Of a DNA stretch of 64,000 nt, positions 9,801 to 60,882 are shown piece by piece. The stretch lies in the NCBI RefSeq assembly GCF_044647545.1, contig NZ_CP172818.1; one strand, written 5' to 3'. This DNA comes from Escherichia coli (GTDB taxonomy: Bacteria; Pseudomonadota; Gammaproteobacteria; Enterobacterales; Enterobacteriaceae). The notes beneath the pieces were generated by a model that was not told the origin of the DNA, did no database searches, and saw nothing but the letters and a program-made list of their open reading frames with translations. The first letter of the stretch is position 1, and each line of letters begins with the position of its first letter. A program made the translations under genes and the position numbers.

Positions 9801-9962
9801 TCTCCCTCACAGAATGGCACATCACTGGACCTGCAGGCCGGACTGGAAGCCCGTGTCCGGGAAAATATCACCCTGGGCGTTCAGGCCGGTTATGCCCACA
9901 GCGTCAGCGGCAGCAGCGCTGAAGGGTATAACGGTCAGGCCACACTGAATGTGACCTTCTGA
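6843..9962 (+). CDS. flu: Antigen 43 self-associating autotransporter adhesin, 1039 aa
   Basis: Starts MKRHLNTCYRLVWNHMTGAFVVASELARARG (extended autotransporter signal); repetitive beta-helix passenger; C-terminal beta-barrel ending ...GQATLNVTF; track ORF 6687..9962 trimmed to the internal ATG. Confidence 0.92.
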   Translation: MKRHLNTCYRLVWNHMTGAFVVASELARARGKRGGVAVALSLAAVTSLPVLAADIVVHPGETVNGGTLANHDNQIVFGTTNGMTISTGLEYGPDNEANTGGQWVQDGGTANKTTVTSGGLQRVNPGGSVSDTVISAGGGQSLQGRAVNTTLNGGEQWMHEGAIATGTVINDKGWQVVKPGTVATDTVVNTGAEGGPDAENGDTGQFVRGDAVRTTINKNGRQIVRAEGTANTTVVYAGGDQTVHGHALDTTLNGGYQYVHNGGTASDTVVNSDGWQIVKNGGVAGNTTVNQKGRLQVDAGGTATNVTLKQGGALVTSTAATVTGINRLGAFSVVEGKADNVVLENGGRLDVLTGHTATNTRVDDGGTLDVRNGGTATTVSMGNGGVLLADSGAAVSGTRSDGKAFSIGGGQADALMLEKGSSFTLNAGDTATDTTVNGGLFTARGGTLAGTTTLNNGAILTLSGKTVNNDTLTIREGDALLQGGSLTGNGSVEKSGSGTLTVSNTTLTQKAVNLNEGTLTLNDSTVTTDVIAQRGTALKLTGSTVLNGAIDPTNVTLASGATWNIPDNATVQSVVDDLSHAGQIHFTSTRTGKFVPATLKVKNLNGQNGTISLRVRPDMAQNNADRLVIDGGRATGKTILNLVNAGNSASGLATSGKGIQVVEAINGATTEEGAFVQGNRLQAGAFNYSLNRDSDESWYLRSENAYRAEVPLYASMLTQAMDYDRIVAGSRSHQTGVNGENNSVRLSIQGGHLGHDNNGGIARGATPESSGSYGFVRLEGDLMRTEVAGMSVTAGVYGAAGHSSVDVKDDDGSRAGTVRDDAGSLGGYLNLVHTSSGLWADIVAQGTRHSMKASSDNNDFRARGWGWLGSLETGLPFSITDNLMLEPQLQYTWQGLSLDDGKDNAGYVKFGHGSAQHVRAGFRLGSHNDMTFGEGTSSRAPLRDSAKHSVSELPVNWWVQPSVIRTFSSRGDMRVGTSTAGSGMTFSPSQNGTSLDLQAGLEARVRENITLGVQAGYAHSVSGSSAEGYNGQATLNVTF

Positions 9963-9982
9963 CAGAACCATCGCCTCTCTGT

Positions 9983-10007
9983 GGTCCCGGTCATCATGAC
10001 CGGGACC
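9983..10007. repeat. Near-perfect palindrome ggtcccggtcat c atgaccgggacc immediately downstream of flu
   Basis: Read from sequence; 12-bp arms; no T-run follows. Confidence 0.6.
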
Positions 10008-10082
10008 CGGACCGGCGCAACGGATCTTCAACGCCACATTCGCTGGCATTAACAATAACATGATATTCATCACGGAGTGACT

Positions 10083-11615
10083 ATGTTACAGATAGTCGGC
10101 GCGCTGATCCTGCTGATCGCAGGATTTGCCATTCTTCGCCTTTTGTTCAGAGCATTAATCAGCACGGCTTCTGCGCTGGCAGGGCTCATATTGCTGTGTC
10201 TGTTCGGCCCGGCCTTACTGGCTGGCTATATCACCGAACGCATAACCCGGTTGTTCCATATTCGCTGGCTGGCAGGCGTATTTCTGACGATTGCCGGAAT
10301 GATCATCAGCTTCATGTGGGGACTTGATGGTAAACATATCGCGCTGGAGGCTCACACCTTTGACTCTGTGAAATTTATTCTGACCACCGCTCTCGCCGGT
10401 GGTCTGCTGGCTGTTCCCCTGCAGATCAAAAACATTCAGCAGAACGGGATCACACCAGAAGATATCAGCAAGGAAATTAACGGGTATTACTGCTGTTTTT
10501 ATACTGCCTTTTTCCTTATGGCGTGTTCTGCATGCGCACCATTGATCGCGTTACAGTACGATATTTCACCGTCACTGATGTGGTGGGGCGGGTTGTTGTA
10601 CTGGCTGGCTGCATTAGTGACGCTGCTATGGGCGGCCAGCCAGATCCAGGCGCTGAAAAAACTGACCTGTGCCATCAGCCAGACACTGGAAGAACAACCG
10701 GTGCTCAACAGTAAATCGTGGCTGACCAGTTTGCAAAACGATTACAGCCTTCCTGACTCACTGACGGAGCGCATCTGGCTGACGCTCATTTCTCAACGGA
10801 TTTCCCGGGGAGAGCTGAGGGAATTTGAACTGGCAGACGGAAACTGGTTACTGAACAATGCCTGGTATGAAAGAAACATGGCAGGGTTTAACGAACAGTT
10901 GAAAGAGAACCTGTCATTCACACCTGATGAACTGAAAACGCTCTTCCGGAACCGCCTGAATTTATCACCGGAAGCGAATGACGATTTTCTCGATCGTTGC
11001 CTGGACGGCGGTGACTGGTATCCCTTTTCAGAAGGTCGCCGTTTTGTATCATTCCATCACGTGGATGAGCTTCGTATCTGTGCCTCCTGCGGGCTGACAG
11101 AAGTACATCATGCCCCGGAAAATCATAAGCCGGATCCGGAATGGTACTGCTCCTCTCTTTGTCGCGAAACAGAAACACTGTGTCAGGAAATTTATGAACG
11201 CCCTTACAACAGCTTTATTTCCGATGCAACGGCGAATGGTCTGATTCTCATGAAACTGCCGGAAACCTGGAGTACAAATGAGAAAATGTTTGCTTCCGGA
11301 GGGCAGGGACATGGGTTTGCCGCTGAACGGGGAAACCATATTGTCGACAGAGTCCGTCTGAAAAACGCACGGATCCTCGGTGATAATAATGCCAGAAATG
11401 GAGCAGACAGACTGGTCAGCGGAACAGAAATCCAGACGAAATATTGTTCAACTGCAGCCCGTAGCGTCGGTGCGGCATTCGACGGACAAAACGGACAGTA
11501 TCGTTACATGGGAAATAATGGCCCCATGCAACTGGAAGTCCCCCGTGATCAGTATGCCGGCGCTGTTGAAACCATGAGGAATAAGATCCGCGAAGGTAAA
11601 GTAGAGGAGCGATGA
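10083..11615 (+). CDS. yeeR: Prophage-encoded membrane protein of unknown function, 510 aa
   Basis: Hydrophobic N-terminus MLQIVGALILLIAGFAILRLLF; Cys motif CASCGL-x17-CSSLC; overlaps yeeS by ATGA. Confidence 0.8.
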   Translation: MLQIVGALILLIAGFAILRLLFRALISTASALAGLILLCLFGPALLAGYITERITRLFHIRWLAGVFLTIAGMIISFMWGLDGKHIALEAHTFDSVKFILTTALAGGLLAVPLQIKNIQQNGITPEDISKEINGYYCCFYTAFFLMACSACAPLIALQYDISPSLMWWGGLLYWLAALVTLLWAASQIQALKKLTCAISQTLEEQPVLNSKSWLTSLQNDYSLPDSLTERIWLTLISQRISRGELREFELADGNWLLNNAWYERNMAGFNEQLKENLSFTPDELKTLFRNRLNLSPEANDDFLDRCLDGGDWYPFSEGRRFVSFHHVDELRICASCGLTEVHHAPENHKPDPEWYCSSLCRETETLCQEIYERPYNSFISDATANGLILMKLPETWSTNEKMFASGGQGHGFAAERGNHIVDRVRLKNARILGDNNARNGADRLVSGTEIQTKYCSTAARSVGAAFDGQNGQYRYMGNNGPMQLEVPRDQYAGAVETMRNKIREGKVEER

Positions 11616-12058
11616 CGCCCGGCGAGCGCAGTCTCATTCAGCGGGCCCTGAAAACCCTGGACCGCCATCTTCATGAACCCGGCGTGCCCTTCACCTCCAC
11701 CCGTGCGGCACGGGAATGGCTGATTCTGAACATGGCGGGACTGGAGCGTGAAGAATTCCGGGTGCTGTATCTGAATAACCAGAATCAGCTGATTGCCGGT
11801 GAAACCCTCTTCACCGGCACCATCAACCGCACGGAAGTCCATCCCCGGGAAGTGATTAAACGCGCCCTGTATCACAATGCCGCTGCCGTGGTGCTGGCAC
11901 ACAATCACCCGTCCGGTGAAGTCACACCCAGCAAGGCAGACTGCCTTATCACGGAACGTCTGGTACAGGCACTGGGCCTGGTGGATATCCGGGTGCCGGA
12001 CCATCTGATAGTCGGTGGCAACCAGGTTTTCTCCTTTGCCGAACATGGTCTGCTTTAA
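11612..12058 (+). CDS. yeeS: RadC-like JAB-domain protein, 148 aa
   Basis: Contains the JAMM-like segment VVLAHNHPSGEVTPSKAD; CP4-44 synteny. Confidence 0.85.
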   Translation: MTPGERSLIQRALKTLDRHLHEPGVPFTSTRAAREWLILNMAGLEREEFRVLYLNNQNQLIAGETLFTGTINRTEVHPREVIKRALYHNAAAVVLAHNHPSGEVTPSKADCLITERLVQALGLVDIRVPDHLIVGGNQVFSFAEHGLL

Positions 12059-12120
12059 CCCGTCACAACCACATCACACCTGTTTTCACTTTTATCTTCT
12101 GTCTTCAGAGGTATCCCACT

Positions 12121-12342
12121 ATGAAAATTATCACCCGTGGCGAAGCCATGCGTATTCACCGTCAGCATCCGGCATCCCGTCTTTTTCCGTTCTGTACCGG
12201 CAAATACCGCTGGCACGGCAGTGCTGAAGCTTATACCGGTCGTGAAGTGCAGGATATTCCCGGTGTGCTGGCCGTGTTTGCCGAACGCCGTAAGGACAGT
12301 TTTGGTCCGTATGTCCGGCTGATGAGCGTCACCCTGAACTGA
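12121..12342 (+). CDS. yeeT: DUF987-family small protein, 73 aa
   Basis: MKIITRGEAMRIHRQHPASRLFPFCTGKYRWHG...; position between yeeS and cbeA. Confidence 0.8.
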   Translation: MKIITRGEAMRIHRQHPASRLFPFCTGKYRWHGSAEAYTGREVQDIPGVLAVFAERRKDSFGPYVRLMSVTLN

Positions 12343-12416
12343 AAGTGGGAATTCTGCTCATCAGAATTATCACCACTACCGAACCATTCTTACCGATTTT
12401 CTGTAAGGATTTTATC

Positions 12417-12785
12417 GTGTCAGACACACTCTCCGGGACAACACATCCCGACGACAATCACGACCACCCCTGGTGGGGACTACCCTGCACCGTGACGCCC
12501 TGTTTCGGCGCCCGTCTGGTGCAGGAGGGTAACCGCTTGCATTACCTTGCCGACCGCGCCGGTAACAGAGGCCTGTTCAGCGATGCAGATGCGTACCCCC
12601 TGGACCAGGCCTTTCCGCTGCTGATGAAACAACTGGAACTCATGCTCACCAGCGGTGAACTGAATCCCCGCCATCAGCATACCGTCACACTGTATGCGAA
12701 GGGGCTGACCTGTGAAGCTGACACCCTCGGCAGCTGTGGTTACGTTTATCTGGCTGTTTATCCGACGCCCGAAACGAAAAATTAA
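12417..12785 (+). CDS. cbeA: Type IV antitoxin CbeA (YeeU), 122 aa, GTG start
   Basis: VSDTLSGTTHPDDNHDHPWWGLPCTVTPCFGARLVQEGNRLHYLADRAG...; track ORF 12345..12785 trimmed to the GTG. Confidence 0.8.
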   Translation: MSDTLSGTTHPDDNHDHPWWGLPCTVTPCFGARLVQEGNRLHYLADRAGNRGLFSDADAYPLDQAFPLLMKQLELMLTSGELNPRHQHTVTLYAKGLTCEADTLGSCGYVYLAVYPTPETKN

Positions 12786-12873
12786 CCCACCGGAATAACC
12801 TTCTGCTCCGGCCTGGTGCTTTCACCACGCCACTTTTCCATTTTTATCTCTGCATATCAGGAAAATCTTCAGT

Positions 12874-13247
12874 ATGAAAACATTACCCGTATTACCCGGG
12901 CAGGCGGCGTTCTCGCCCGTCTCCTGTTACCATCTGGCAGATACTGCTCACCCGATTACTGGACCAGCACTACAGCCTTACGCTGAATGACACACCGTTC
13001 GCCGATGAACGCGTGATTGAGCAGCATATTGAGGCAGGCATTTCACTGTGTGATGCAGTGAACTTTCTCGTGGAAAAATACGTACTGGTACAACTGACCA
13101 GCCGGGATTCAGCGCCGGAACCCGTCTCAGTTAATCAACAGCATTGATATCCTCCGGGCTCGCCGGGCAACCGGTCTGATGACCCGCAGCAACTACAGAA
13201 CGGTAAATAACATTACCCTGGGTAAGTATCCGGAGGCGAAAAATGAA
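12874..13247 (+). pseudogene. cbtA: CbtA (YeeV)-like toxin gene with the reading frame split over three frames
   Basis: ATG at 12874 gives [12 protein letters not shown] then stops at 12988; CbtA-like residues [48 protein letters not shown] are in the +1 frame (stop 13145); [21 protein letters not shown]... is in the +2 frame. Confidence 0.6.
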
Positions 13248-13439
13248 ATGACGCTGGAAGCCGACAGCGTTAACGTACAGGCGCTGGATATGGGGCACAT
13301 TGTCGTTGACGTCGATGGTGTTAATCTCACTGAACTGATTAATAAAGCCGCTGAAAACGGTTATTCACTCCGCGTGGTGGATGACCGTGACACTACCGAA
13401 ACACCGGCAACTTCTGCCAGCCCTCATCAGTTGCCGTAA
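13248..13439 (+). CDS. yeeW: Small prophage protein YeeW-like (63 aa), here in frame with the last cbtA segment
   Basis: MTLEADSVNVQALDMGHIVVDVDGVNLTELINKAAENGYSLRVVDDRDTTETPATSASPHQLP; part of track ORF 13179..13439. Confidence 0.5.
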   Translation: MTLEADSVNVQALDMGHIVVDVDGVNLTELINKAAENGYSLRVVDDRDTTETPATSASPHQLP

Positions 13440-13604
13440 GACAATACAGTGATACAGAGTATAATGCCATTAGCCACAGAAAAAAAAAAAAACAGCACTG
13501 TTGTCCTGTATTAAACAGGCAAGAGAAGATATCCATACCCTGCGCCATCTGCAGCTTCTGCACCAGAACCGGTGAATCTCACTCAACAGACTTCATTTCC
13601 CCTG

Positions 13605-13636
13605 ACGCCAGCCTGAATACAGCTGGCGTTTTCATT
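13605..13636 (+). terminator. Intrinsic terminator (acgccagc ctgaatac agctggcgt tttcattt) downstream of yeeW
   Basis: GC-rich stem followed by a T-rich run. Confidence 0.6.
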
Positions 13637-13733
13637 TATATACAGAAAGGAAAACCGATAATAATGGAATGGACGCCCCGACCATGAAGCAACGGTAGGA
13701 TATTACTGATAAACCTTCCAGTGGAGGTGCGTT

Positions 13734-13814
13734 ATGGCCGTTTTAACGATTAGCATTGACCTGACAAAAAATGAATTCCAAATCCACGGTCTGGGTAGGA
13801 ACAGAAAAATCTAA
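13734..13814 (+). pseudogene. 26-codon remnant resembling the N-terminus of an IS110-family transposase
   Basis: MAVLTISIDLTKNEFQIHGLGRNRKI then stop; the ISIDLTK pattern resembles the IGIDxAK start of IS110-type transposases; weak. Confidence 0.25.
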
Positions 13815-13889
13815 GCTCAGAAAACGGATTAAAGTAAGCGTCAACGGAGCACCATATTGACGCTTATTTATTGGTGAGAACTACGTTCC

Positions 13890-14246
13890 ATGGCAGGAGT
13901 TCGTCAACACGGTTGGAGGGCCATTCCGGCAGTATGCTCAGAATATGGCGCAGATACGCTTCCGGATCGATACCGTTCAGACGGCAGGTGCCTGCTTTTC
14001 CGGCAACAAGCAGGAATCTCAGCGCTGAAGCAGGAATTAGAGGTAAAAACGCCCTACCGGGCCATGAATCACCCGGTCATTGGAGTAGTAACCAAAGCAG
14101 ATTTAGCCAGCATGGAACAAATATCTTTGGTGAAATGTTGGTTACGGGAAGCTGGAGCGCACAACGTGTTAGTAACCAGTGCGGTTAATAACAATGGAGT
14201 TACAGAACTTTTTGCCTTGCTGCATACAGAAGAAGGCTGCCGCTAA
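13890..14246 (+). pseudogene. yoeF: C-terminal fragment of an EutP/PduV-family small GTPase
   Basis: ...NHPVIGVVTKADLASMEQISLVKCWLREAGAHNVLVTSAVNNNGVTELFALLHTEE; no P-loop upstream; upstream part of the track ORF is unlikely to be native. Confidence 0.45.
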
Positions 14247-14346
14247 TTTCGATAGGTTCTCAGATGAGAATGATGACGGTGATACACAGATAAGAATCAA
14301 TGAGCAATGAGGGTTGCCGGGCAACCCTCATTGAATAAAACAGGAA

Positions 14347-14676
14347 TTACTTCGCTTCGCCGTTTTTCATTTCGCCCATAGCTTTCAGCTTTTTGGAGAT
14401 ATCGCGGCGTTCTTTGGAGAGCTCGGCATTTTTGATGATGTAATCGTCAACGCGATCTTCATAGTCACCTTTCATGCTGGCGATGATGCCCTGGATTGCT
14501 TCAACGCTCATCCCTGGCTTGATGTAATCGCTCAGGTTGTCCAGCAACAGGACGCGCTTCTGGTTGTCACGGATCTTTTTCTCAACGTCCTGAATTTCAC
14601 GTTGCAGTTTGTTCTTACGACGGAACAGACGAACAAATTCCAGTACGTCCTGGAATGAAGGCTTGGTAGTTTCCAT
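14347..14676 (-). CDS. yeeX: UPF0265/DUF496 protein YeeX, 109 aa
   Basis: [41 protein letters not shown]...; track ORF trimmed to the internal ATG. Confidence 0.85.
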
Positions 14677-14847
14677 TTTTATACCCCTGATAATGTGAGA
14701 GTCGGATTCGTTTAAGCAACCGCTATTCGATAGGGCCAACATTACTCATAGCTGCCGCAGATGACAATGCTTTTATCCCTTTTCACTATCATACCCTTTA
14801 TCCTTGCTGAATCGAAGCAGCAGCAAGATGATTCTGAAGTTCAGGAA

Positions 14848-15906
14848 TTATTTGCGCAAGGCCCGGCAAATCAGATTCGATAGCAACTCAAGCTGATGCG
14901 CCGTTTCCATGTTCAGCCACACATAACCATAGATTGGTGTTTCCACAACCTTCAGGTCATGGTGGTTATTAAGCAACAGACGCAGCTCTTCCACAGCATC
15001 GTTCAATTTTTCCGTATTGGCAAAAACCGGCTGCGGATTACCTTCGTACAGCGCATGAACAAGGCTCAGCAGTATTTGCTGCATCATGTGCTGGGTATCA
15101 CGAAGTTTTTGCGCGTTCAATAACACGAAATGGCTGGGGCGCGTGGCCCAGTATGCATTGATTTGCAACTCCAGCATACAAACCAGATTGCGGTTAATGG
15201 TCTGGATACCTTCATATATCGATTTTGGAATACGGGTTTCTTTGCTGGCGGGCGCAATCAGCCCACGCATTTTCACGGCATCGGTCAGCAGTTTTTGTAG
15301 ATGGCTTTCCAGACGTGGGCGTTCGAGTAAGTTCGGTGAGAATGCAGATTGATAGACCCGATTATACTCGGTCAGACTTTTCGCCAGTTGAATGCGCCAG
15401 TGGATGAACGCCCGTTGTGGCCAGATACCGGTAAACAACATTGCCAGTAAAGAGCCGAGGATCACATCGCCGCTTCGCCATAACGCCGTATCAATTTCAC
15501 CTGTCGGGGAACCCACAACAATTGCCAGCGTCACCCCAATCAATAATCCTTGATACGGTTTCTTGCCCAGCGCCAGCCAACCGCAAAGAAACATCGCCGC
15601 CGCGCACCAGACTAACATCAGCGGTAACGAAATTAACTCCAGTTGCAGAGCGATAAGACCTAAAATCGAACCCAACACCGTACCGCCAATACGTTCGAAG
15701 GCACGAGGGACAACGTTCCCCCAGAACGAGATTGGCCCCATAATCACCACCATGGTGACCAGCGGCCAGGTGCTTTCCGGGATAGTAAACAGGCGGATAA
15801 TGAGAAAAGTGAGCAGGAATGCCAGCGCGACCCGAGTACCATGCACAATGCGGTAATGGCGGTATACCCGGATTTCAAACGGGCTTAATGACTTATCGGC
15901 ACGCAC
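14848..15906 (-). CDS. yeeA: Inner-membrane protein YeeA (FUSC-like putative transporter), 352 aa
   Basis: Multi-pass hydrophobic N-terminal half; size and synteny. Confidence 0.85.
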   Translation of the reverse strand: MRADKSLSPFEIRVYRHYRIVHGTRVALAFLLTFLIIRLFTIPESTWPLVTMVVIMGPISFWGNVVPRAFERIGGTVLGSILGLIALQLELISLPLMLVWCAAAMFLCGWLALGKKPYQGLLIGVTLAIVVGSPTGEIDTALWRSGDVILGSLLAMLFTGIWPQRAFIHWRIQLAKSLTEYNRVYQSAFSPNLLERPRLESHLQKLLTDAVKMRGLIAPASKETRIPKSIYEGIQTINRNLVCMLELQINAYWATRPSHFVLLNAQKLRDTQHMMQQILLSLVHALYEGNPQPVFANTEKLNDAVEELRLLLNNHHDLKVVETPIYGYVWLNMETAHQLELLSNLICRALRK

Positions 15907-16103
15907 GCAGAAACTCCGTAATGAAGATTAAAAGCGCTCATAACACATCTGTCGGCCAGAAGGCGCGCCTCTGAGTTATCCGACGGACATACCGGGAACA
16001 GTGTAATTTCCCGGCAGGAGCGAAAAATTTGAAAGGCGCATCTTACTCTTTTCGCTTTCAAAAAAAGAGTGGTCTTCGCGTCAACACACCGCCCTGAGAT
16101 GAA

Positions 16104-16577
16104 TTAGTGATGTTTTGGCTGCACCGCAACATACATTTCGATATCCCAGTACCCATCTTCCGCGCCATTGTTCAAGTAAACCTCGAAGCAGGGCTTTGGT
16201 AACATTTCATAGGCACTGTCCTGCAAGAGGCTATTAAAGAACTGATACCAGGGTTTAGCAAAATCATCACCGACTACACGAGCCACCGCCACCGCATACT
16301 GACCACCTGAAATTTCTGTCAGAATGACGCCCTCACTGTTTTCGGGGAGCGTAAAGTTATTCGGCACCGTCACGACGGTGTCGCAGCGTAATTTTTCGGC
16401 GGGTGTTTCATCTGGATTGTCGTAATAGACAGCAACCCACTCCTTCGGCACAATATTTTTGCTATCTATCCACATCATCAACTGCTCAAAGCCTTTCTTT
16501 ACCGTCTGTTCCCACGGGCCAACGAGATGGAAACCTGCAACGGTACGTTTATCTTCCTGCTTAATCTCGTAGTTCAT
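16104..16577 (-). CDS. sbmC: DNA gyrase inhibitor SbmC (GyrI), 157 aa
   Basis: [41 protein letters not shown]...; LexA box upstream. Confidence 0.9.
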
Positions 16578-16591
16578 GACGCCCCCATTAA

Positions 16592-16611
16592 TACTGTTTT
16601 TATATACAGTA
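16592..16611 (-). promoter_or_regulatory. LexA (SOS) box tactgtttttatatacagta upstream of sbmC
   Basis: Perfect CTGT-N8-ACAG palindrome 15 bp upstream of the sbmC start. Confidence 0.75.
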
Positions 16612-16695
16612 TAGTTGCAATATTAAAACCACAAGGAATGAGTGTTGATTATGCGAGCAGACTCGCACTCCTGCCAGTCTGCTGCAAAAGAAAGG

Positions 16696-17862
16696 TCAGG
16701 CCTTATGGTGGAAATAATCACTCAGCCGGGAAAACATGCTGCCTTCCCCGACAGATTCCAGGGTAACCAGCGGCCAGTGCGCCACCTGTTTATCACGGTC
16801 GTAAAGTTCAATTTCCCCTACCCGCTGATGGGCGCTAATTGGCGCGGTGAGTTCTTTACCATCAAGGGTATATTTGGCTTTGATATGTGGAATTTCGGCT
16901 TTCGGTAGCACCATCCAGAACTCTTGTTCCGTTCCCAGGGCGATATTTTCTTTATCGCCATACCAGATGCGTTCCGTACCAACCTTTTTCCCACGGTGCA
17001 AAATTTGCACCGTAGTAAAGTTTTGTTGACCCCAACGCAGTAATTTTCTTGCCTCTTCCTCACGACCTTTTGCGCTGTCAGCCCCCATTACCACTGCAAT
17101 GAGACGACGCTGCCCATCTACAGCCGAAGCAATGAGATTAAACCCGGCACCAGAAGTATGACCCGTTTTCAGGCCGTCAACATTCATGGTTTTATCCCAC
17201 AATAACCCGTTACGGTTTTGCTGGGTGATACCGTTCCAGGTGAGGCTTTTCTCACTGTACATATGATAAAACTCGGGCTCGCCGTGGATGATAGCGCGAG
17301 AAAGCACAGCTAAATCATAAGCCGAGCTATGCTGGCCAGGTGCATCCAGACCATGCACTGTTTCAAAATGCGTATCCTTGAGATGCAGCTTCTCGGCATA
17401 GTTGTTCATCATTTCAACAAACTGCCGTTGCCCACCGGCAATATAGTCAGCCAGTGCAACACAAGCGTCATTTCCGGAATCCACAATTAAACCACGGCTT
17501 AAATCACGTACCGATACGCGATCGCCCTCTTTCAAAAACATCAGTGAAGAACCGACAAACACCGGATTATCTTTCGCCCACGCATCACGCCCCACGGTGA
17601 CAATATCGTCTGGCGTAATGCGATGACTATCGATAGCACGATCCACGACATAGCCCGTCATCAGCTTTGTCAGGCTGGCGGGATTGCGCTGTTGATGCTC
17701 ATTACCCGCGGTGAGAATCTGACCGGTGGTGTAATCCATCAATACCCAGGACCCGGCATGAATCTCTGGAGGCTGAGGTGAAAAAGGAATGTTTTCCGCC
17801 GCAAAACCAGACGATAAATTAAAAACGAACAAAGAAGCAGCAATAATAAGACGGCGTTTCAA
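16696..17862 (-). CDS. dacD: D-alanyl-D-alanine carboxypeptidase DacD (PBP6b), 388 aa, probable TTG start
   Basis: SxxK motif PASLTKLMT, SGN motif DSGND; signal peptide; start uncertain by two codons. Confidence 0.88.
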   Translation of the reverse strand: MKRRLIIAASLFVFNLSSGFAAENIPFSPQPPEIHAGSWVLMDYTTGQILTAGNEHQQRNPASLTKLMTGYVVDRAIDSHRITPDDIVTVGRDAWAKDNPVFVGSSLMFLKEGDRVSVRDLSRGLIVDSGNDACVALADYIAGGQRQFVEMMNNYAEKLHLKDTHFETVHGLDAPGQHSSAYDLAVLSRAIIHGEPEFYHMYSEKSLTWNGITQQNRNGLLWDKTMNVDGLKTGHTSGAGFNLIASAVDGQRRLIAVVMGADSAKGREEEARKLLRWGQQNFTTVQILHRGKKVGTERIWYGDKENIALGTEQEFWMVLPKAEIPHIKAKYTLDGKELTAPISAHQRVGEIELYDRDKQVAHWPLVTLESVGEGSMFSRLSDYFHHKA

Positions 17863-18070
17863 CAGCAAACCCTCAGGTGTTTCAAATAGCTGTTCTTTTT
17901 ACGGAAATACTTATGAACTGGCTGGAATAAAGTGCAAGAAAATGTGACTACTATCTCATTTTTATCTGACATGATCTGTTGCCACTCGCTGCCAAATTGT
18001 CGCGCTAAAGCTGATTAGCACGGTGATATTTGATACTCTGGCAGACAGCAGAAATAACGGATTTAACCTA

Positions 18071-24443: not shown

Positions 24444-24593
24444 CCGTTATCTCCTGATACACCTAAGATCTATAAGGCTACGCTAGCGTATCAAAACTGA
24501 CAATTCATTCTATGAATGAGACGTTCATACCACACAAGAAAATTATGAGAGAAAGATCAATATTGAACTTTACCAACATTTGTAGACCAGATA

Positions 24594-24626
24594 AGGCATT
24601 CACGCCGCATCCGGCAGGAACCAAAG
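24594..24626 (-). repeat. REP (repetitive extragenic palindromic) element
   Basis: Reverse complement cctgccggatgcggcgtgaatgccttatctg matches the REP consensus. Confidence 0.7.
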
Positions 24627-24794
24627 CCCACTTTAGTTACAGAACACAATGTTCTTGAGGGTTTTAAAGACATATTTTCACGATTTCTTTTCTAACGTAG
24701 TCAAAACCACCTAACGCCAGTCACTCCAGGCCCCCTCCTTTCCCCGCTCATTCATTAAACAAATCCATTGCCATAAAATATATAAAAAAGCCCT

Positions 24795-24823
24795 TGCTTT
24801 CTAACGTGAAAGTGGTTTAGGTT
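24795..24823 (+). promoter_or_regulatory. his operon promoter candidate: -35 ttgctt (24795-24800), 17-bp spacer, -10 taggtt (24818-24823)
   Basis: Hexamers and spacing read from sequence about 40 bp upstream of hisL. Confidence 0.45.
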
Positions 24824-24861
24824 AAAAGACATCAGTTGAATAAACATTCACAGAGACTTTT

Positions 24862-24912
24862 ATGACACGCGTTCAATTTAAACACCACCATCATCACCAT
24901 CATCCTGACTAG
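24862..24912 (+). CDS. hisL: his operon leader peptide (16 aa, seven consecutive His codons)
   Basis: atgacacgcgttcaatttaaacaccaccatcatcaccatcatcctgactag = MTRVQFKHHHHHHHPD. Confidence 0.97.
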   Translation: MTRVQFKHHHHHHHPD

Positions 24913-24975
24913 TCTTTCAGGCGATGTGTGCTGGAAGACATTCAGATCTTCCAGTGGTGCATGAACGCATGAGAA

Positions 24976-25012
24976 AGCCCCCGGAAGATCACCTTCCGGG
25001 GGCTTTTTTATT
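24976..25012 (+). terminator. his attenuator terminator (agcccccggaag atcac cttccgggggct tttttatt)
   Basis: Perfect 12-bp GC-rich stem followed by a T-run between hisL and hisG. Confidence 0.9.
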
Positions 25013-25057
25013 GCGCGGTTGATAACGGTTCAGACAGGTTTAAAGAGGAATAACAAA

Positions 25058-48043: not shown

Positions 48044-48301
48044 CATGCATTCCTACGATGTGACGAGCGTTACCCACTCGCGCTTAACTCGAAAAATTCA
48101 AGCGCTAATTGTCTTACCAATCCGCTCTGGAAACAAGGAAAATCCTGGAAAACTTTGACTAAAATCCTATTGCTAAGTCGTTGTTATTCTGATTGTTTAT
48201 ATAAAACAACGGCAGGAAAATTCGCAACAAATTACTTTCGCCGCTAATCTTCACTGCCGTTATAATTTTCTTATCAACCGTTACATCCGGTCAGATTTTC
48301 A

Positions 48302-49195
48302 TTATTCGCTTAACAGCTTCTCAATCCCTTTACGGAACTTCGCCCCTTCTTTGAGGTTGCGTAGTCCATACTTCACGAACGCTTGCATATAACCCATTTT
48401 TTTACCGCAGTCGTAGCTGTCGCCGGTCATCAGCATGGCATCAACGGACTGTTTTTTCGCCAGTTCGGCAATGGCATCAGTCAGCTGAATACGCCCCCAT
48501 GCACCAGGCTGAGTGCGTTCAAGTTCCGGCCAAATATCGGCAGAAAGCACATAGCGACCAACGGCCATGATGTCTGAGTCCAGCGTCTGCGGCTGATCCG
48601 GTTTTTCGATGAATTCAACAATGCGGCTGACTTTACCTTCGCGGTCCAGCGGCTCTTTGGTCTGGATGACAGAGTATTCAGAGAGGTCACCCGGCATACG
48701 TTTTGCCAGCACCTGGCTGCGGCCCGTTTCGTTGAAGCGCGCAATCATGGCAGCAAGGTTGTAGCGCAGCGGGTCGGCGCTGGCGTCGTCGATCACAACG
48801 TCTGGCAGCACCACGACAAATGGATTGTCACCAATGGCAGGTCGTGCACATAAAATGGAGTGGCCCAAACCTAAAGGTTCGCCCTGACGCACGTTCATAA
48901 TTGTCACGCCCGGCGGGCAAATGGACTGTACTTCCGCCAGCAGTTGACGCTTCACGCGCTGTTCAAGGAGAGATTCTAATTCATAAGAGGTGTCGAAGTG
49001 GTTTTCGACCGCGTTCTTGGAAGCGTGAGTTACCAGGAGGATTTCTTTGATCCCTGCAGCCACAATCTCGTCAACGATGTACTGAATCATTGGCTTGTCG
49101 ACGATCGGTAGCATCTCTTTGGGAATCGCCTTAGTGGCAGGCAACATATGCATCCCAAGACCCGCTACAGGAATAACTGCTTTTAAATTCGTCAT
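48302..49195 (-). CDS. galF: UTP--glucose-1-phosphate uridylyltransferase-like regulatory subunit GalF, 297 aa
   Basis: [41 protein letters not shown]. Confidence 0.92.
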
Positions 49196-49369
49196 TATTT
49201 CATCCACCTGTAAAATGGTTGCTGAATTATAGCTTGTTCGATTTTTTTCGCCAGCATCAATTACCCTGAATTGATTACTGAATTACTTGTGATGTTACGC
49301 CGCTTCGTTGTGGATTGCAGTAGCATTGTTCCTAAGTATGGCTCCATTTTTCCAGGAATGGTCGCAAAT

Positions 49370-50764
49370 CTACTCTCTCCGTTCCGGCAATCTAAAGTTA
49401 ATCTTTGCCACATTAACAATATGGTGATTAATCCTGTCGATATCGACGGAGCTTTGCCCTCTTTCATTCACCGCATGAACATTTGCAAGAGACAGCAGTG
49501 TTTCTTTTTTCGCCATAAACACGCCGCGAACGTCTTTGCGCATGTCGAAGTTCATGCTCAATGCGGGTCCAACTGAGGATTCCTGCATCACATTGATATT
49601 ACGCATAAAAAGATGTTGCGGTTTGTTGTGTAACTCCAGCGACGCACGCTTCATCTCAATGTTAGTCAGCGCCACAAAGGAGACAGCATTCCCGGCGGAG
49701 ATTTGAATGCCGTGCAATTTATAAGCAAGATGAGTATTATCCAGTTGAATATTATTCACCCGGAAATTCTGCGGTATCGAGAGATATTTGCCTTTAATTA
49801 CCCCATAGCCGATTAACATCCCGGCACTATTAATCATTTCAATATTATCAATCACAAAGTTGTCACAACCATAAATAGCAACTGTGGCGTTATCAATACC
49901 TGCTTTCTTACTGAAATCCGGCGTGATATTACGGGCTTTGATATTACGAATAACAAAATGTTTACCATTTTCAACATGGATCAGTTGCCGACAATCCGAT
50001 CCCGTGATATTCGCCACGACAAAGTTTTTCACTGCCTGGTCTTCCGGGTAGTTGTTATCATAAGTGCTTCCCGCAAGACCTATGCCAATGCCCCAGTTGA
50101 TTTTGCCGTTAGTACAGTTGATGCGCTCGATGACATGGTCAGATATCAAAATATCACGGTCGTTAATCGCCACGTTCCATTCAATAGCGTCGCCCTGTAA
50201 GTCACTGAACTTACAGTTGGTGATGTTGGCACCGATAATCTGATTATGAAATCCCTGGCGTAAGATGGCGTAATTAGCGTGGCTGACAGTGAGGTTATCG
50301 ATGGTCAGGTTGCGCATGACCCGTTTGTTTTTGCCGCCGATATAAATCTGCGTTACCGGACCAAAGCCGCTCATCGCCAGCCCTTTGATGGTGCAGTCAG
50401 AGCCGCGCACATCCAGGGTGATGTTATGCATACTGCCGCCCTCCTCCCCTGTCACCTGGCTGCCGTCCTGTAAGACAAATCGCCCTCTGCCGTTGCCGCG
50501 CAAGCTTCCAAGAATGTGTAACGTTTTACCGGGAGGGATAAAGATGCCGGTGTTGATATTGTCACAAACCAATCCGCCAGGCACGACAACCGTTTGCCCT
50601 TCGCTGAAGGCTTGTTTAAATGAGGCGATCCAGTCGTGAGGGTTGTAGTCGTTAATGTTTACGCTTTGTCGGGCGGATAGTGCGCGAGCGAAAGGGGTAT
50701 GAAGGAAGGCAAGCGCGGAGCTTGCCGTCAGGAAGGTGCGTCGGGAGAGTGTTTTAAATGGCAT
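49370..50764 (-). CDS. wcaM: Colanic acid biosynthesis protein WcaM, 464 aa, signal peptide plus beta-helix-like repeats
   Basis: [28 protein letters not shown]at-like signal; last gene of the colanic acid cluster. Confidence 0.88.
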
Positions 50765-50774
50765 ACGTTCTCCT

Positions 50775-51995
50775 CTATAAAGCCTGCAGCAAGCTGGCGA
50801 GTTCTCGATTAATCACCTGCTGGTTAAAATCGTGTTCGACTTTTTCGCGAGCACGTTTGACGACAGGAGCCAGTTCGTCGGTGTCCAGTTGGCTAAACGC
50901 CGCCAGTCGTTGCGCCAGTGCGCGAGCATCGTTCTCAGGCACCAGCCAGCCGGATTTATCGGCCTCCACCAGTTCCGGTATTCCGCTATGCAGAGTAGAA
51001 ACCACCGGAATGCCGACCGCCATCGCTTCCATTAGCGCCACCGGGATGCCTTCCATATCGCCGTCCGCACCCGTTACCGAAGGCAACAGGAAGACATCCG
51101 CGTCGTCGAGCATCGCCTTCACTTCGTGGCTTGGTTTAAAGCCCGGCATCTCCACCACATCTTCCAGTTGATATTGTTCGATGAGGGTGCGCAGGCGTCG
51201 TTCCCACGGGCCAATGCCGAGGATGCGATAGCGAAATGCCACGCCCTGCTCTTTCAACTGACGGCAGGCTTCGATCGCCACATGCAGGCCTTTTTTCTCG
51301 GTTAAGCGTGCGACGGAAATGATTTCCAGCGGCGTTGCGGGCGCTTTCACCGGACGCGGGCTAAAACGCGTCATGTCCACGCCCATGCGCGATACGGCGA
51401 TTTTTTCCCTCGGGCAGCCCATTTTTTGCAGCCTTCCGGCCCACAGATTGCTTATTGGTAACATCAGGTCGCCACGGCGAAACAGTTGTTGATATTCGGG
51501 AGTGTAGTGGTTGAGCACTTCCCGACTGGAGATATCAATACCGTGGAAGATAGTGGCAATTTTGCCGCGAATGACACCCAGTTCGCGTAGTTTTGCCGCG
51601 GTTACCCCAGCAGGGCCAAAATGAGCGATAAACACATCGGCATGAAACGGTGTTGCGACCTGGCCGCAAATGGCAGACAAAATCAGGTTCCGCGACTCGG
51701 CACCATAGCGTTTGAGGTTAAGCGCCTGCCAGGTATTTTTACGATGAATGCCGCGTAAGGTCTGACTGGCTCGGTGGCGCAGTTTCGCCACTTTGCCCGT
51801 AGGTTCGTCCTGTAACCAGCGGGTTCTGGCGGCAAGGTTGTATTTCGTCCATGCCGCGTGGGTGTTCTGGGTGTCGCCTTTTTGCAGCGCGAGAATCTCC
51901 ACCTCAAATCCCATATCAATAAACGCGGTAATTTGGTTAAGGACGAAGGTTTCTGAAGACAGCGGGAATTTCAGTAAAAAGAAGCCAACCTTCAT
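50775..51995 (-). CDS. wcaL: Colanic acid glycosyltransferase WcaL (GT1 family), 406 aa
   Basis: GT1 C-terminal signature; cluster position. Confidence 0.88.
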
Positions 51996-53272
51996 TTCAC
52001 TTCCCCGATGCGTTCAAGCACAGATTGCACCATCTGCATTCCTGTCTGACGCTCACGACTGACGGCTTCGTTAAGTCGTGTATTCAGCGCAGGAAGCTGG
52101 CCTAAGGTATCCGCAACCATCGCTTGCAGGCTGCCGTCTAATAAATGACGGATATCAATTGCCATCTCTGGTAGCCCCAGTTGTTGCATAATCCCGGCGG
52201 ATTTATGTTCATAGTTGATGGCAATCGCTGGAGTGGCAAAGTTCATCGAGATAATGGCAGAGTGCAAGCGCGTACCGACGGTGAGTTCACAGGCCGCCAG
52301 AATTTTGCCCATTTCCAGATCATTGAGTTCATCCATCACTACGTGGTAACGGGCAGGATCGCTGATGTGCTGGCGCAGGTTGAGCGCCACCATGCGGTCG
52401 TCTTTGTTATAGCTGTCGATGCCCGTACAGGTGGAGAGCGCAATCACCTGATACCCTTCATCGAGAATGCGATTGACCACCCCGGCAAAGGCTTTTTCAT
52501 ACGCTTGTTGGGTGGTGCCGAGACGTTTGTCAAACGGTGCCAGTTCGCGCAGGGTAATGGCCACCGTTTTCTGTTGTGCGGCAACGTCCAGCCAGTGTTG
52601 AACGGCATAGCTGGCGGTGAAGTCTTCGGTGTGGTGATCGACCAGCCACGCGGTATCGACGCCATGTTCGACTTTTGCGGTGGTGATATTGCTGCGTTTC
52701 ATCAGTTCAAGGCTGACCGATTCGCGCAGGATCAGCGCGTCGCAGTGACCGAATACGTAGTTCACCAGTTGGTTAAATTGCTCATCCTGGAACGGGCCGA
52801 CGCTGTGACCAATCATAAACAGCGGCTTTTTCGCCATAAACGTGCAAAGCGCATGTTCAAACTGCGGAACGCCGTAGAGATCGACAAAAAACGATCCGCC
52901 GACCTGAATAATGGCGTCGTAACCTGACAGCAGGCGCACGAAGTCGGTGAATCCCTGGGCGATGGCGATATTACGCAGCTTGCCAGTGTCGGTGACGCGT
53001 GAGAGCAATACCTGGTGCTGGTAGCGGCGACGGAGAACTTTTTTAACGCGCCCAACCACGCCCGCCGCGCTGTTGTGTTGTTTCATTTGCAGGAACAGCG
53101 GATCGCCCATTACCGGACGGTTGAGCAGCCAGGAAGAACTGACCGGATAGCGACTCATCACGTCCACTTCGGCGTGTGGATTGAGGATGTTGATGGCATC
53201 AAGTAAGCCGCGCAAGATGGCGCTGTCGCCGCGATTGCCGCAAGTGTGGTTGCCCAGAATAAGTAATTTCAT
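51992..53272 (-). CDS. wcaK: Colanic acid pyruvyl transferase WcaK, 426 aa
   Basis: MKLLILGNHTCGNRGDSAILRGL; track ORF 525 aa trimmed to the internal start. Confidence 0.88.
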   Translation of the reverse strand: MKLLILGNHTCGNRGDSAILRGLLDAINILNPHAEVDVMSRYPVSSSWLLNRPVMGDPLFLQMKQHNSAAGVVGRVKKVLRRRYQHQVLLSRVTDTGKLRNIAIAQGFTDFVRLLSGYDAIIQVGGSFFVDLYGVPQFEHALCTFMAKKPLFMIGHSVGPFQDEQFNQLVNYVFGHCDALILRESVSLELMKRSNITTAKVEHGVDTAWLVDHHTEDFTASYAVQHWLDVAAQQKTVAITLRELAPFDKRLGTTQQAYEKAFAGVVNRILDEGYQVIALSTCTGIDSYNKDDRMVALNLRQHISDPARYHVVMDELNDLEMGKILAACELTVGTRLHSAIISMNFATPAIAINYEHKSAGIMQQLGLPEMAIDIRHLLDGSLQAMVADTLGQLPALNTRLNEAVSRERQTGMQMVQSVLERIGEVK

Positions 53273-53343
53273 TTTTTCCTCATAAATTTGATGCCAGGTG
53301 AGGCTATGTTTGTTGTGTTCGTTGCGGAACCGAAAACAGCCAT

Positions 53344-54822: not shown

Positions 54823-54823
54823 A

Positions 54824-56218: not shown

Positions 56219-56272
56219 CGTTGTTCCTGTTTTTAACCCCTTACCCGCAGTGGGGTAAGGGAAGATCCGACA

Positions 56273-57643: not shown

Positions 57644-57743
57644 GTCGTTACCCTTTTTCAGGCAATAGTTGGCCCTGACCGAAACGGCCAATTTTGTTTT
57701 TTCGTTATTTACCGGAGAATTAATCCGGTTGATTATTCAACGG

Positions 57744-59180: not shown

Positions 59181-59182
59181 AA

Positions 59183-60406: not shown

Positions 60407-60882
60407 AATCCGGGAACTCCGGCACGCTTCTCAGCGAGAAAATAGGCGCGGCTGTTAGCGTGAACATTGTCACTGGCGAGCAACGCGTCCGGCGTCAGCC
60501 AGCGGTAATCGTCATGCTGCTCATCCGGCAGTAACAGATCTTCTTCAGCGACTCTGAAGCGAAAACCGAGCACCACATAGTGAGTGGTGAAATCCGTGTC
60601 GGAGAAGTTATCGTCATAAAAGTGCTGCCAGACACCGTAAAACTGGCCTACTGTTATCGGCAGACGCAGCCCCAGTTCCTCCATCGTCAGCCGCTCAAAT
60701 GCGGCTTCCAGCGTTTCGTCTTTCTGCACGCGCCCTCCCGGCACAAACCAGTAACCCTGCGCCGGGCGGTTGGTTCTTTTGCCAAGCAGAAACTCGCCGC
60801 GACTGTTCTCGACAATAAAGTCGAGAGAGACAAGCGGAGTAGAGCGCACTACCGTGGCAAAGTCTTCCTGACGTAAAAACAT
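60403..60882 (-). CDS. gmm: GDP-mannose mannosyl hydrolase (Nudix), 159 aa
   Basis: Nudix box region [23 protein letters not shown]. Confidence 0.9.

What the first reader, a model, noticed from the sequence alone, without database searches (positions are those of the whole stretch)
12417..13439. Toxin gene cbtA is frame-disrupted while the antitoxin cbeA is intact; the last toxin segment is fused in frame to yeeW
The ATG at 12874 opens [12 protein letters not shown] and then stops after 38 codons (TGA 12988-12990). Recognisably CbtA-like residues continue in the +1 frame ([48 protein letters not shown], stop 13145-13147) and then in the +2 frame ([39 protein letters not shown]), which runs without a stop into the yeeW-like sequence to 13439. 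The upstream antitoxin (122 aa from GTG 12417) is uninterrupted. A cytoskeleton-targeting toxin inactivated by at least two frameshifts next to a retained antitoxin is either real toxin decay or indel errors in a multi-copy paralog family.
Basis: partly seen in the sequence, partly recalled or inferred. Interest (0 to 1): 0.6.

Follow-up and report, generated by a model that had tools for sequence, protein, structure and literature searches.

The report
Broken cbtA is a paralog-blend artefact
The many-times-frameshifted toxin gene is almost certainly not biology: this stretch is a base-by-base blend of two related toxin-antitoxin copies from one E. coli lineage, and only one 1-bp deletion, already annotated in related genomes, is a real inactivating mutation.

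Summary
cbeA (12417-12785) is an open 122-codon ORF. cbtA (from 12874) is broken and its last piece runs in frame into yeeW (to 13439). There are three deletions, not two, plus a garbled cbtA/yeeW junction.

The 64-kb window is a composite. Shared core DNA is 99.99-100% identical to ST648 genomes such as ECONIH1. DNA that K-12 has and ECONIH1 lacks at these loci (flu-yeeR, and the O16 rfb genes with the IS5 in wbbL) is 100% K-12. The switches fall exactly at the homology borders.

Inside this, 12100-13641 is a site-by-site blend of the ST648 lineage's two paralogous copies:
- E is the copy at this locus; P lies about 1.15 Mb away in ECONIH1.
- Of 174 sites where E and P differ, the window matches E at 94, P at 79 and neither at 1.
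- It has no private substitution where E and P agree, and it switches parent 66 times.
- Its private indels sit where E and P differ by indels or dense mismatches.

No 28-mer of 12880-12960 occurs in 5,426 complete E. coli genomes. Only the 1-bp deletion at 13091/13092 is shared, with ECONIH1, MS6198 and SMS-3-5, where cbtA is already annotated as frameshifted. Verdict: an assembly or consensus artefact over a known pseudogene. Low interest.

The parts
12417..12785 (+). cbeA (yeeU) ORF, 122 codons, GTG start. Open, but a chimera of the two parental alleles.
   Evidence: ORF. PF06154 over the full length. Every residue equals either the E allele (WP_001285585.1 type) or the P allele (ECONIH1 second copy): S6, H10, H17, N50, P61, E100, G105 and T120 come from P; L53, S55, E74, C107 and N122 come from E. 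This exact protein is on one contig only among about 15 billion proteins.
12874..12990 (+). cbtA start and first ORF (38 codons plus TGA). Only codons 1-12 (12874-12908) are native CbtA reading.
12908..12909 (+). 2-bp deletion (CA) relative to K-12, ECONIH1-E and all other copies seen. Private to this record.
   Evidence: It lies in the most E/P-divergent segment, with 12 differing columns within +-10 nt. The 81-nt query 12880-12960 has no megablast match in 5,426 genomes.
12909..13091 (+). cbtA codons about 13-73, read in the +1 frame ([10 protein letters not shown]...VEKYVLV).
   Evidence: PF06755, E 1e-34.
13091..13092 (+). 1-bp deletion (G of the Arg74 codon). This is the one genuine, inherited frameshift.
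   Evidence: The same gap is present in ECONIH1, MS6198 and SMS-3-5. PGAP annotates cbtA as 'frameshifted' (374 nt) in all three. In ECONIH1 it gives an 87-codon truncated product.
13092..13124 (+). Short cbtA piece back in the ATG frame ([11 protein letters not shown]).
13124..13125 (+). 1-bp deletion (C). Private to this record.
   Evidence: It sits in a cluster of E/P mismatches, with 8 differing columns within +-10 nt. The best match of 13092-13175 in 5,426 genomes is 92.8%.
13125..13241 (+). cbtA 3' piece in the +2 frame ([14 protein letters not shown]...GKYPEAK).
   Evidence: PF06755 model positions 86-112.
13242..13248 (+). Garbled cbtA/yeeW junction, AATGAAA. It is a partial copy of P's longer junction (CAATGAAACTGGCCC) in place of E's TGA. 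It removes the cbtA stop.
13248..13439 (+). yeeW (DUF5983), 63 codons from ATG 13248. The 86-codon ORF from ATG 13179 is only its upstream extension.
   Evidence: 63-aa WP_400165328.1 and the 86-aa ORF, each on one contig; PF25638.
12100..13641 (.). The blended block, a per-site mixture of paralog E (the ECONIH1 copy at this locus) and paralog P (ECONIH1 3518377-3519385).
   Evidence: In 12395-13645 there are 94 E sites, 79 P sites and 1 neither, with no private substitution where E and P agree. There are 66 switches and a mean run of 2.6 informative sites.
13480..13492 (.). Run of 13 A. Ten extra A sit exactly where P carries a 93-nt insertion relative to E.
6523..11609 (.). flu (Ag43) and yeeR, 100% identical to K-12 MG1655. 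This replaces the 7.4 kb that ECONIH1 carries here.
36157..44911 (.). O16 rfb genes including wbbL::IS5, 100% identical to K-12 MG1655. It is flanked on both sides by ECONIH1-identical DNA, and the switches fall within 7 nt and 2 nt of the homology borders.

Best explanation
The multi-frameshift cbtA, the in-frame run into yeeW and the 'intact' cbeA allele come from how this record was built. They are not features of a living chromosome.

The record looks like the genome of an ST648-like (phylogroup F) isolate laid onto the K-12 MG1655 reference. Where isolate and reference share DNA, the isolate's bases were written. Where only K-12 has DNA, the reference was left untouched.

The isolate's lineage carries two paralogous yeeS-yeeT-cbeA-cbtA-yeeW modules, called E and P here. 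E is at this locus. P is about 1.15 Mb away in ECONIH1. Over the stretch where the two can be aligned (about 12100-13641), data from both copies were piled on one template and each base was called independently. This is an inference.

The result takes E or P alleles almost at random from site to site. Spurious partial indels appear where E and P differ in length or very densely. cbeA and yeeW stay open only because E and P are collinear there.

The true locus in this lineage most likely looks like ECONIH1, MS6198 and SMS-3-5: an intact cbeA, a cbtA with a single 1-bp deletion in codon 74 (87-codon truncated product), and an intact yeeW. The P copy keeps an intact toxin-antitoxin pair.

What is shown: the composite structure, the two-parent origin of every substitution, the placement of the indels, the uniqueness of the sequence, and the shared real deletion. 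What is inferred: the exact software route (reference-guided consensus, polishing or patching).
For: 1. Composite window.
- 13650-36164 and 44910-64000 are 99.99-100% identical to ECONIH1.
- 1405-5258, 6523-11609 and 36157-44911 have almost no mismatch to K-12 MG1655 (one in 1405-5258, none in the other two) and include the IS5 in wbbL.
- The switches coincide with the ends of K-12/ECONIH1 homology.

2. The P paralog belongs to the same lineage as the backbone. It is at 99% identity or more in only 45 of 5,426 genomes. The listed 99.9% hits include the genomes that best match the window's flanks: ECONIH1, MS6198, FDAARGOS_497, Ecol_881, WP5-S18-ESBL-08, MINF_9A and DFL.5.

3. With ECONIH1's own E and P copies as parents:
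- At the 174 sites where they differ (12395-13645), the window matches E at 94, P at 79 and neither at 1.
- It has no private substitution where E and P agree anywhere in 11700-13900.
- There are 66 switches, against 86 +- 6.5 for random assignment, and the mean run is 2.6 informative sites.

4. Five of the six private indel events have 8 or more E/P-differing columns within +-10 nt, and the sixth has 7. The background median is 3, and 13% of columns reach 8. Two are partial copies of P insertions: 7 of 15 nt at the junction, and ten A for a 93-nt insert.

5. The deletion at 13091/13092 is E's, yet the substitutions on both sides of it (13090, 13092) are P's.

6. Uniqueness.
- The best identity of the block to 13,570 homologous places in 5,426 complete genomes is 93.7%. 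For cbtA alone it is 91.9%.
- 12880-12960 has no 28-mer match at all.
- The CbeA and YeeW proteins occur on one 4,499,902-bp contig among about 15 billion proteins.

7. The choice of allele depends on the base. G was chosen at 23 of 80 sites where it was one of the two options (p = 2e-4).

8. A second multi-copy element shows the same thing. The end of IS2 at 5259-5569 sits at K-12's insertion site, yet it is only 94-95% identical to any full-length match. The BS-04 record is second best.
Against: - No reads are available, so the artefact is inferred from the sequence pattern alone.
- Alternation between E and P alleles is not diagnostic by itself. A natural third paralog (L016) also alternates, with 51 switches. 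The argument rests on the absence of private substitutions and on the indel placement.
- The window is not a pure SNP-on-K-12 consensus. It lacks K-12's yefM-yoeB and one IS5, and it has its own REP-region sequence at 24520-24730. The pipeline must therefore have included some de novo or local reassembly, and I cannot name it.
- There are fewer switches than pure chance predicts (P = 0.001). This is mainly due to one run of 19 E sites.
Confidence: 0.86

Rival explanations
1. The mosaic is real. Repeated gene conversion between the two paralogous islands in one cell produced a patchwork, destroying the toxin and making a chimeric antitoxin.
For: Both parents exist in the same lineage. The blend is confined to the stretch where they are homologous. 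Natural alleles of this family are visibly mosaic; VE-V11-M, for example, has P-like tracts.
Against: - A mean run of 2.6 informative sites and 66 switches in 1.25 kb is far finer than the tract-like P segments seen in natural alleles such as VE-V11-M. Known conversion or mismatch-repair tracts are also longer (my own knowledge).
- Indels were inherited in part: 7 of 15 nt, and ten A for 93 nt.
- Allele choice is base-biased.
- The same record carries reference-identical K-12 filler and a second odd multi-copy element.
- No other genome has any piece of it.
Confidence: 0.06
2. The toxin decayed in place. After the first frameshift, further deletions and substitutions accumulated in cbtA while cbeA was kept by selection.
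For: One deletion is truly inherited, and cbtA is a pseudogene in related genomes. No indels fall in cbeA or yeeW.
Against: - All 86 substitutions match the P paralog and none is new. Neutral decay would give new mutations.
- The flanks are 100% identical to ECONIH1, so there has been no time for 6.5% divergence.
- cbeA and yeeW carry as many changes as cbtA.
- The absence of indels there is explained by E and P being collinear.
Confidence: 0.02
3. These are ordinary random sequencing indel errors (homopolymer-type) in an otherwise correct copy.
For: Multi-copy regions are error-prone. There is one odd 13-A run at 13480-13492.
Against: The three cbtA deletions are not in homopolymers. They come with 86 ordered substitutions that all derive from one paralog. 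41 kb of flanking core DNA differs from ECONIH1 by only about 5 bases and one indel outside one REP-region difference.
Confidence: 0.03
4. A genuinely divergent third paralog, already decayed, was imported by horizontal transfer and replaced the local copy.
For: The transition:transversion ratio of 57:28 and the use of natural amino-acid variants look like natural divergence. Family diversity is large.
Against: An independent lineage would carry private substitutions, as L016 does. The window has none. Nothing closer than 93.7% exists among 13,570 copies. E's 1-bp deletion is embedded among P alleles.
Confidence: 0.03

Closest known systems
CbtA/CbeA (YeeV/YeeU) type IV toxin-antitoxin module of cryptic prophage CP4-44, E. 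coli K-12
   Same: Same locus and gene order: flu-yeeR-yeeS-yeeT-cbeA-cbtA-yeeW, then tmaR/yeeA/sbmC/dacD. Pfam CbtA_toxin and CbeA_antitoxin both match. CbtA is the 124-aa toxin that blocks FtsZ and MreB (PMC5624674). Homologous pairs YkfI/YafW and YpjF/YfjZ exist in other cryptic prophages (PMC5371832).
   Different: There is no 124-codon ORF here. Three deletions and a lost stop break it. The block is only about 92.6% identical to K-12.
Phylogroup-F cbtA pseudogene allele (ECONIH1, MS6198, SMS-3-5), annotated 'frameshifted' in RefSeq
   Same: Identical flanks. The same 1-bp deletion in codon 74. An intact cbeA and yeeW lie next to it.
   Different: Those genomes have only that one lesion, and their cbeA (WP_001285585.1) and yeeW (WP_000988600.1) alleles recur in all three genomes. 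The window adds 86 substitutions and 6 further indel events, all traceable to the second paralog.
Second CbtA-family module of ST648 genomes (ECONIH1 3518377-3519385: YeeU WP_038432125.1, toxin WP_001564063.1)
   Same: It supplies every non-E allele in the block. It has the same gene order, and its 125-aa toxin is intact.
   Different: It lies about 1.15 Mb away, in a different island next to kpsF. Its toxin has a different N-terminus, its junction to the DUF5983 gene is longer, and it has a 93-nt insert downstream.
Collapsed-paralog or reference-guided consensus chimeras in genome assemblies (general artefact class; from my own knowledge)
   Same: Per-site mixing of two copies, no new substitutions, garbled indels at parental length differences, and reference-identical filler in reference-only DNA.
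   Different: The pipeline is unknown. Some non-K-12 structure was recovered, so this was not a plain SNP-only consensus.

Membership tests
CbtA_toxin (PF06755), type IV TA toxin | Sequence matches the family profile | tested here: met
   The +1-frame piece matches model positions 16-78 (E 1e-34). The +2-frame piece matches positions 86-112 (E 3e-6).
CbtA_toxin (PF06755), type IV TA toxin | A single uninterrupted ORF of about 124 codons | tested here: not met
   The first ORF stops after 38 codons. The native reading is split over four pieces in three frames.
CbtA_toxin (PF06755), type IV TA toxin | Lies immediately downstream of a cbeA/yeeU-family gene | tested here: met
   cbeA is at 12417-12785 and the cbtA ATG at 12874, the same spacing as in K-12.
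CbtA_toxin (PF06755), type IV TA toxin | Toxicity through FtsZ and MreB binding | not testable with these tools
   Function is known for K-12 CbtA (PMC5624674). R15 and F65, which that paper implicates, both lie before the real frameshift at codon 74.
CbeA_antitoxin (PF06154) | Full-length profile match and an open ORF | tested here: met
   E 6e-53 over model positions 1-100 of 101. 122-codon ORF.
CbeA_antitoxin (PF06154) | The allele exists in nature, in independent genomes | tested here: not met
   The exact protein is on one contig only. Every residue is from E or from P, alternating five times along the protein.
Genuine inherited pseudogene lesion | The same lesion is present in independently sequenced relatives | tested here: met
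   This holds for the 13091/13092 deletion only: ECONIH1, MS6198 and SMS-3-5.
Genuine inherited pseudogene lesion | The same lesion is present in independently sequenced relatives (the other indels) | tested here: not met
   12880-12960 has no match in 5,426 genomes. 13092-13175 reaches 92.8% at best. The junction and the A-run are absent from all loci examined.
Natural gene-conversion mosaic | A few contiguous donor tracts, with indels inherited whole | tested here: not met
   66 switches, mean run 2.6 informative sites, and partial indels.
Paralog-blend / reference-patched assembly artefact | Every variant is traceable to another copy in the same lineage, and none is new | tested here: met
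   94 E, 79 P, 1 neither, and no private substitution. The P copy is present in the ST648 genomes that best match the window's flanks.
Paralog-blend / reference-patched assembly artefact | Reference-identical sequence in reference-only DNA, switching at the homology borders | tested here: met
   Three K-12-identical segments, one of them including wbbL::IS5.
Paralog-blend / reference-patched assembly artefact | Reads phase into two pure haplotypes, and K-12-only segments have no read depth | not testable with these tools
   Raw reads and the record's accession are not available here. Look-ups for the encoding contig failed.

The most novel reading that the evidence does not exclude
The block is a genuine in-vivo hyper-mosaic. 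Very short-patch exchange between two toxin-antitoxin islands 1.15 Mb apart scrambled them base by base, killing the toxin and creating a new chimeric antitoxin, in a strain that also truly carries K-12-type flu-yeeR and O16 wbbL::IS5 segments.
Probability: 0.04. Interest if true: 0.55.

Novelty: not a real feature. Interest (0 to 1): 0.07.

Why it matters
The biology adds little. A frameshifted cbtA beside an intact cbeA is already annotated in phylogroup-F genomes.

The practical value is data hygiene. The record behind this window appears to be a K-12-templated composite, and it has put artificial proteins into public databases. The CbeA chimera WP_400165261.1 and the YeeW allele WP_400165328.1 each occur on a single contig. 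Anyone counting 'decayed toxins with retained antitoxins', typing O-antigens or inferring recombination from this record would be misled.

The case also gives a simple sequence-only test for such artefacts. Take the lineage's own paralogs as parents. Then check for no private substitutions, near-random parent switching, and indels that sit at the parents' length differences.

Tried and rejected
- **Selection on the antitoxin.** I first read the absence of indels in cbeA and yeeW as purifying selection, and so as real decay. I rejected this once E and P proved collinear there while differing by indels and dense mismatch clusters in and around cbtA.
- **Alternation as proof of artefact.** A natural third paralog (L016) also alternates, with 51 switches, as any third lineage must. 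The decisive measures were the absence of private substitutions and the indel placement.
- **Exact-match tiling.** Against 20 loci, the window's longest exact match is 82 nt, versus 249 nt or more for the controls. The panel is too small for the segment counts to mean much.
- **Local E/P mismatch density as a predictor of which allele was written.** The effect is weak overall (Spearman p = 0.07). It is clear only at very dense clusters, where E is almost always kept.
- **Finding the record.** The look-up of encoding contigs found no gene on record for the record's unique CbeA or for its YeeS allele.
- **Finding the sequencing study.** A literature search turned up nothing useful.
- **NCBIfam.** It has no HMM for these families. 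One call failed on a pseudogene translation.
- **K-12 derivative.** I considered a K-12 derivative carrying a transferred fragment. I rejected it because the core DNA differs from K-12 by 2-5% across the window, and because K-12 identity is confined to DNA that ECONIH1 lacks at these loci, ending within a few bases of the homology borders.

Full report
**1. The observation**

The window around the finding is the CP4-44-type island of E. coli. Its genes are flu (6687-9962), yeeR (10077-11615), yeeS (11612-12058), yeeT (12121-12342) and cbeA (12417-12785). A broken cbtA starts at 12874 and yeeW ends at 13439. Then come tmaR, yeeA, sbmC and dacD.

Pfam confirms CbtA_toxin on the +1 and +2 frame pieces, DUF5983_N on the yeeW part, and a full-length CbeA_antitoxin.

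Alignment to K-12 refines the picture:
- a 2-bp deletion between 12908/12909;
- a 1-bp deletion between 13091/13092;
- a 1-bp deletion between 13124/13125;
- a junction, GCGAAA-AATGAAA-TGACG, that is 4 nt longer than K-12's GCGAAA-TGA-TGACA and removes the stop.

Between the second and third deletions, a short piece ([11 protein letters not shown]) is back in the ATG frame.

**2. The stretch is oddly unique**

The flanks are ordinary E. coli. Positions 14300-18000 are 100% identical to many genomes. Yet cbeA-cbtA-yeeW reaches only 93.7% identity to the best of 13,570 homologous places in 5,426 complete genomes. cbtA alone reaches 91.9%.

The exact CbeA protein (WP_400165261.1) and the 63-aa YeeW (WP_400165328.1) occur on a single 4,499,902-bp contig among about 15 billion proteins.

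Compared with the closest genome, ECONIH1 (ST648), the differences are confined to a block with sharp edges. There are about 85 substitutions (57 transitions, 28 transversions) and 8 indel events between 12340 and 13645. On either side there are essentially none.

**3. The window is a composite**

A comparison across all 64 kb gave an unexpected pattern.
- Against ECONIH1, 13650-36164 and 44910-64000 are 99.99-100% identical.
- Against K-12 MG1655, the same core DNA differs by 2-5%.
- Three segments are K-12-identical, with no mismatch in the last two and one in the first: 1405-5258, 6523-11609 (flu-yeeR), and 36157-44911. The last holds the O16 rfb genes, including the IS5 inside wbbL.
- These are stretches that K-12 has and ECONIH1 lacks at these loci. 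ECONIH1 carries an O1 cluster and a different island interior.
- The switches fall within 2-7 nt of where K-12/ECONIH1 homology ends.

Real recombination would leave crossovers scattered through the shared core. An IS5-disrupted wbbL is, to my knowledge, the laboratory K-12 rfb-50 lesion. The simplest reading is that an ST648-like isolate's data were laid on the K-12 reference and the reference was kept wherever the isolate had nothing to map.

It was not a pure SNP consensus. The window lacks K-12's yefM-yoeB and one IS5, and it has its own REP-region sequence.

**4. The block is a blend of the lineage's two paralogs**

All amino-acid variants of the window's CbeA exist in natural YeeU alleles. 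That led me to fetch paralog loci. Nearly every substitution in the block matched one paralog type.

That type is present at 99% identity or more in only 45 of the 5,426 genomes. The listed 99.9% hits include the ST648 genomes that best match the window's flanks. In ECONIH1 it sits at 3518377-3519385, about 1.15 Mb from the CP4-44 locus.

I then used ECONIH1's own two copies as parents: E at this locus, and P as the second copy.
- At the 174 substitution sites where they differ (12395-13645), the window matches E at 94, P at 79 and neither at 1.
- Where E and P agree, the window has no private substitution at all between 11700 and 13900.
- The parent changes 66 times. The mean run is 2.6 informative sites, and random assignment would give 86 +- 6.5 switches.
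- The CbeA protein alternates in the same way: P at residues 6, 10, 17, 50, 61, 100, 105 and 120; E at 53, 55, 74, 107 and 122.

Alternation alone proves nothing, because a natural third paralog (L016) also alternates. But a natural lineage carries private changes, and this one carries none.

**5. The indels**

The window's private indels sit where the parents differ in length or very densely.
- The 2-bp deletion lies in the most divergent 30 nt of the toxin's N-terminus.
- The 13124/5 deletion lies in a mismatch cluster.
- The junction is 7 of the 15 nt of P's longer junction.
- Ten extra A (13480-13489) stand where P has a 93-nt insertion.
- 'AA' at 12342-3 stands at the start of another P insertion.

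Five of the six events have 8 or more E/P-differing columns within +-10 nt. The background median is 3, and 13% of columns reach 8.

The remaining deletion, at 13091/13092, is E's own. In the window it is flanked on both sides by P alleles, which shows that each position was decided independently.

Allele choice is also base-biased. G was written at only 23 of 80 sites where it was one of the two options (p = 2e-4). That is hard to ascribe to recombination.

An 81-nt query across the first deletion (12880-12960) has no match in 28 Gb of E. coli genomes. The segment around the third deletion reaches 92.8% at best.

A second multi-copy element in the window shows the same thing. The end of IS2 (5259-5569) sits at K-12's insertion site, yet it is only 94-95% identical to any full-length match.

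**6. What is real**

The 1-bp deletion in codon 74 is identical in ECONIH1, MS6198 and SMS-3-5. In all three, RefSeq annotates cbtA as 'frameshifted' (374 nt), next to an intact cbeA (WP_001285585.1) and yeeW. It truncates the product to 87 codons.

The lineage's P copy keeps an intact 125-aa toxin and its antitoxin. So the true biology is an already-annotated toxin pseudogene next to a retained antitoxin, in a genome with at least one intact paralogous pair.

CbtA blocks FtsZ and MreB (PMC5624674), and cross-interaction among the K-12 paralog pairs has been studied (PMC5371832). Whether the truncated product keeps any activity was not tested. Residues R15 and F65, which PMC5624674 implicates, precede the frameshift.

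**7. Explanations weighed**

| Explanation | Confidence | Main point |
|---|---|---|
| Paralog blend in a reference-patched assembly | 0.86 | Accounts for all the observations above |
| Real fine-scale gene conversion | 0.06 | Contradicted by tract lengths, partial indels, base bias and the K-12 filler |
| In-place decay | 0.02 | Contradicted by the absence of new substitutions and by flanks identical to ECONIH1 |
| Random indel error | 0.03 | The deletions are not in homopolymers and come with 86 ordered substitutions |
| Imported third paralog | 0.03 | It would carry private substitutions, and E's deletion is embedded among P alleles |

No reads were available, so the artefact is an inference from pattern, and I cannot name the software.

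**8. Verdict**

- The feature as described (three-frame toxin, fusion to yeeW, special retention of the antitoxin) is not real.
- What is real is already annotated.
- Interest is low. The main use is to flag the record and its artificial proteins.

Noticed in passing
window 36157-44911: The O16 O-antigen genes, with IS5 inserted in wbbL, are 100% identical to K-12 MG1655. They sit between gnd and rfbC sequences that are 100% ECONIH1 (ST648, which carries O1). The switch points lie within 2-7 nt of the homology borders.
   Followed up: yes
window 6523-11609 and 1405-5258: flu-yeeR and an upstream segment (cobU/cobS side, IS2) are K-12-identical: no mismatch in flu-yeeR and one in the upstream segment. 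The DNA around them is ST648-like or diverged. ECONIH1 has a 7.4-kb dynamin/patatin island interior where this window has flu-yeeR.
   Followed up: yes
window 5259-5569: The end of IS2, at K-12's insertion site in a TonB-receptor pseudogene, differs at the same 20 or so positions from both K-12's and ECONIH1's IS2. No full-length match in 5,426 genomes exceeds 95.3%. This looks like a second blended multi-copy element.
   Followed up: partly
locus L004 (NZ_CP172819.1, strain BS-04, 2044440-2047846): BS-04 is a 4.52-Mb broiler isolate record whose CbeA/CbtA/YeeW accessions (WP_400165741-743) lie close to this window's. It shows isolated paralog-type alleles sprinkled on a K-12-type copy, a partial P-like junction insertion (CAATGAAAC), and the second-best match to the odd IS2 end. 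It may have been built the same way.
   Followed up: partly
window 13480-13492: This run of 13 A is the longest homopolymer in the window. K-12 and ECONIH1 have AAA here, and the P paralog has a 93-nt insertion.
   Followed up: yes
window 24444-25018: The yefM-yoeB toxin-antitoxin pair that K-12 has between yeeZ and hisL is absent, as in ECONIH1. The REP-like intergenic sequence at about 24520-24730 differs from both K-12 and ECONIH1.
   Followed up: partly
locus L025 (ECONIH1 3515860-3521916): The ST648 lineage's second CbtA-family module has an intact 125-aa toxin and a 122-aa antitoxin. Its DUF5983 and DUF4942 genes are annotated as broken. It lies next to kpsF.
   Followed up: partly
locus L001 (VE-V11-M) 6001-6368 and locus L005 1515-1888: Other complete genomes show the opposite or a similar state: cbeA frameshifted with cbtA intact (VE-V11-M), and cbtA frameshifted in a different island (Z1323CEC0019). 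Pseudogenes in this family are common in annotations.
   Followed up: no
window 11605-11650: The yeeR/yeeS boundary is where K-12-identical sequence gives way to ECONIH1-type sequence. The resulting 148-aa YeeS (WP_211487520.1) is recorded on only two contigs.
   Followed up: no
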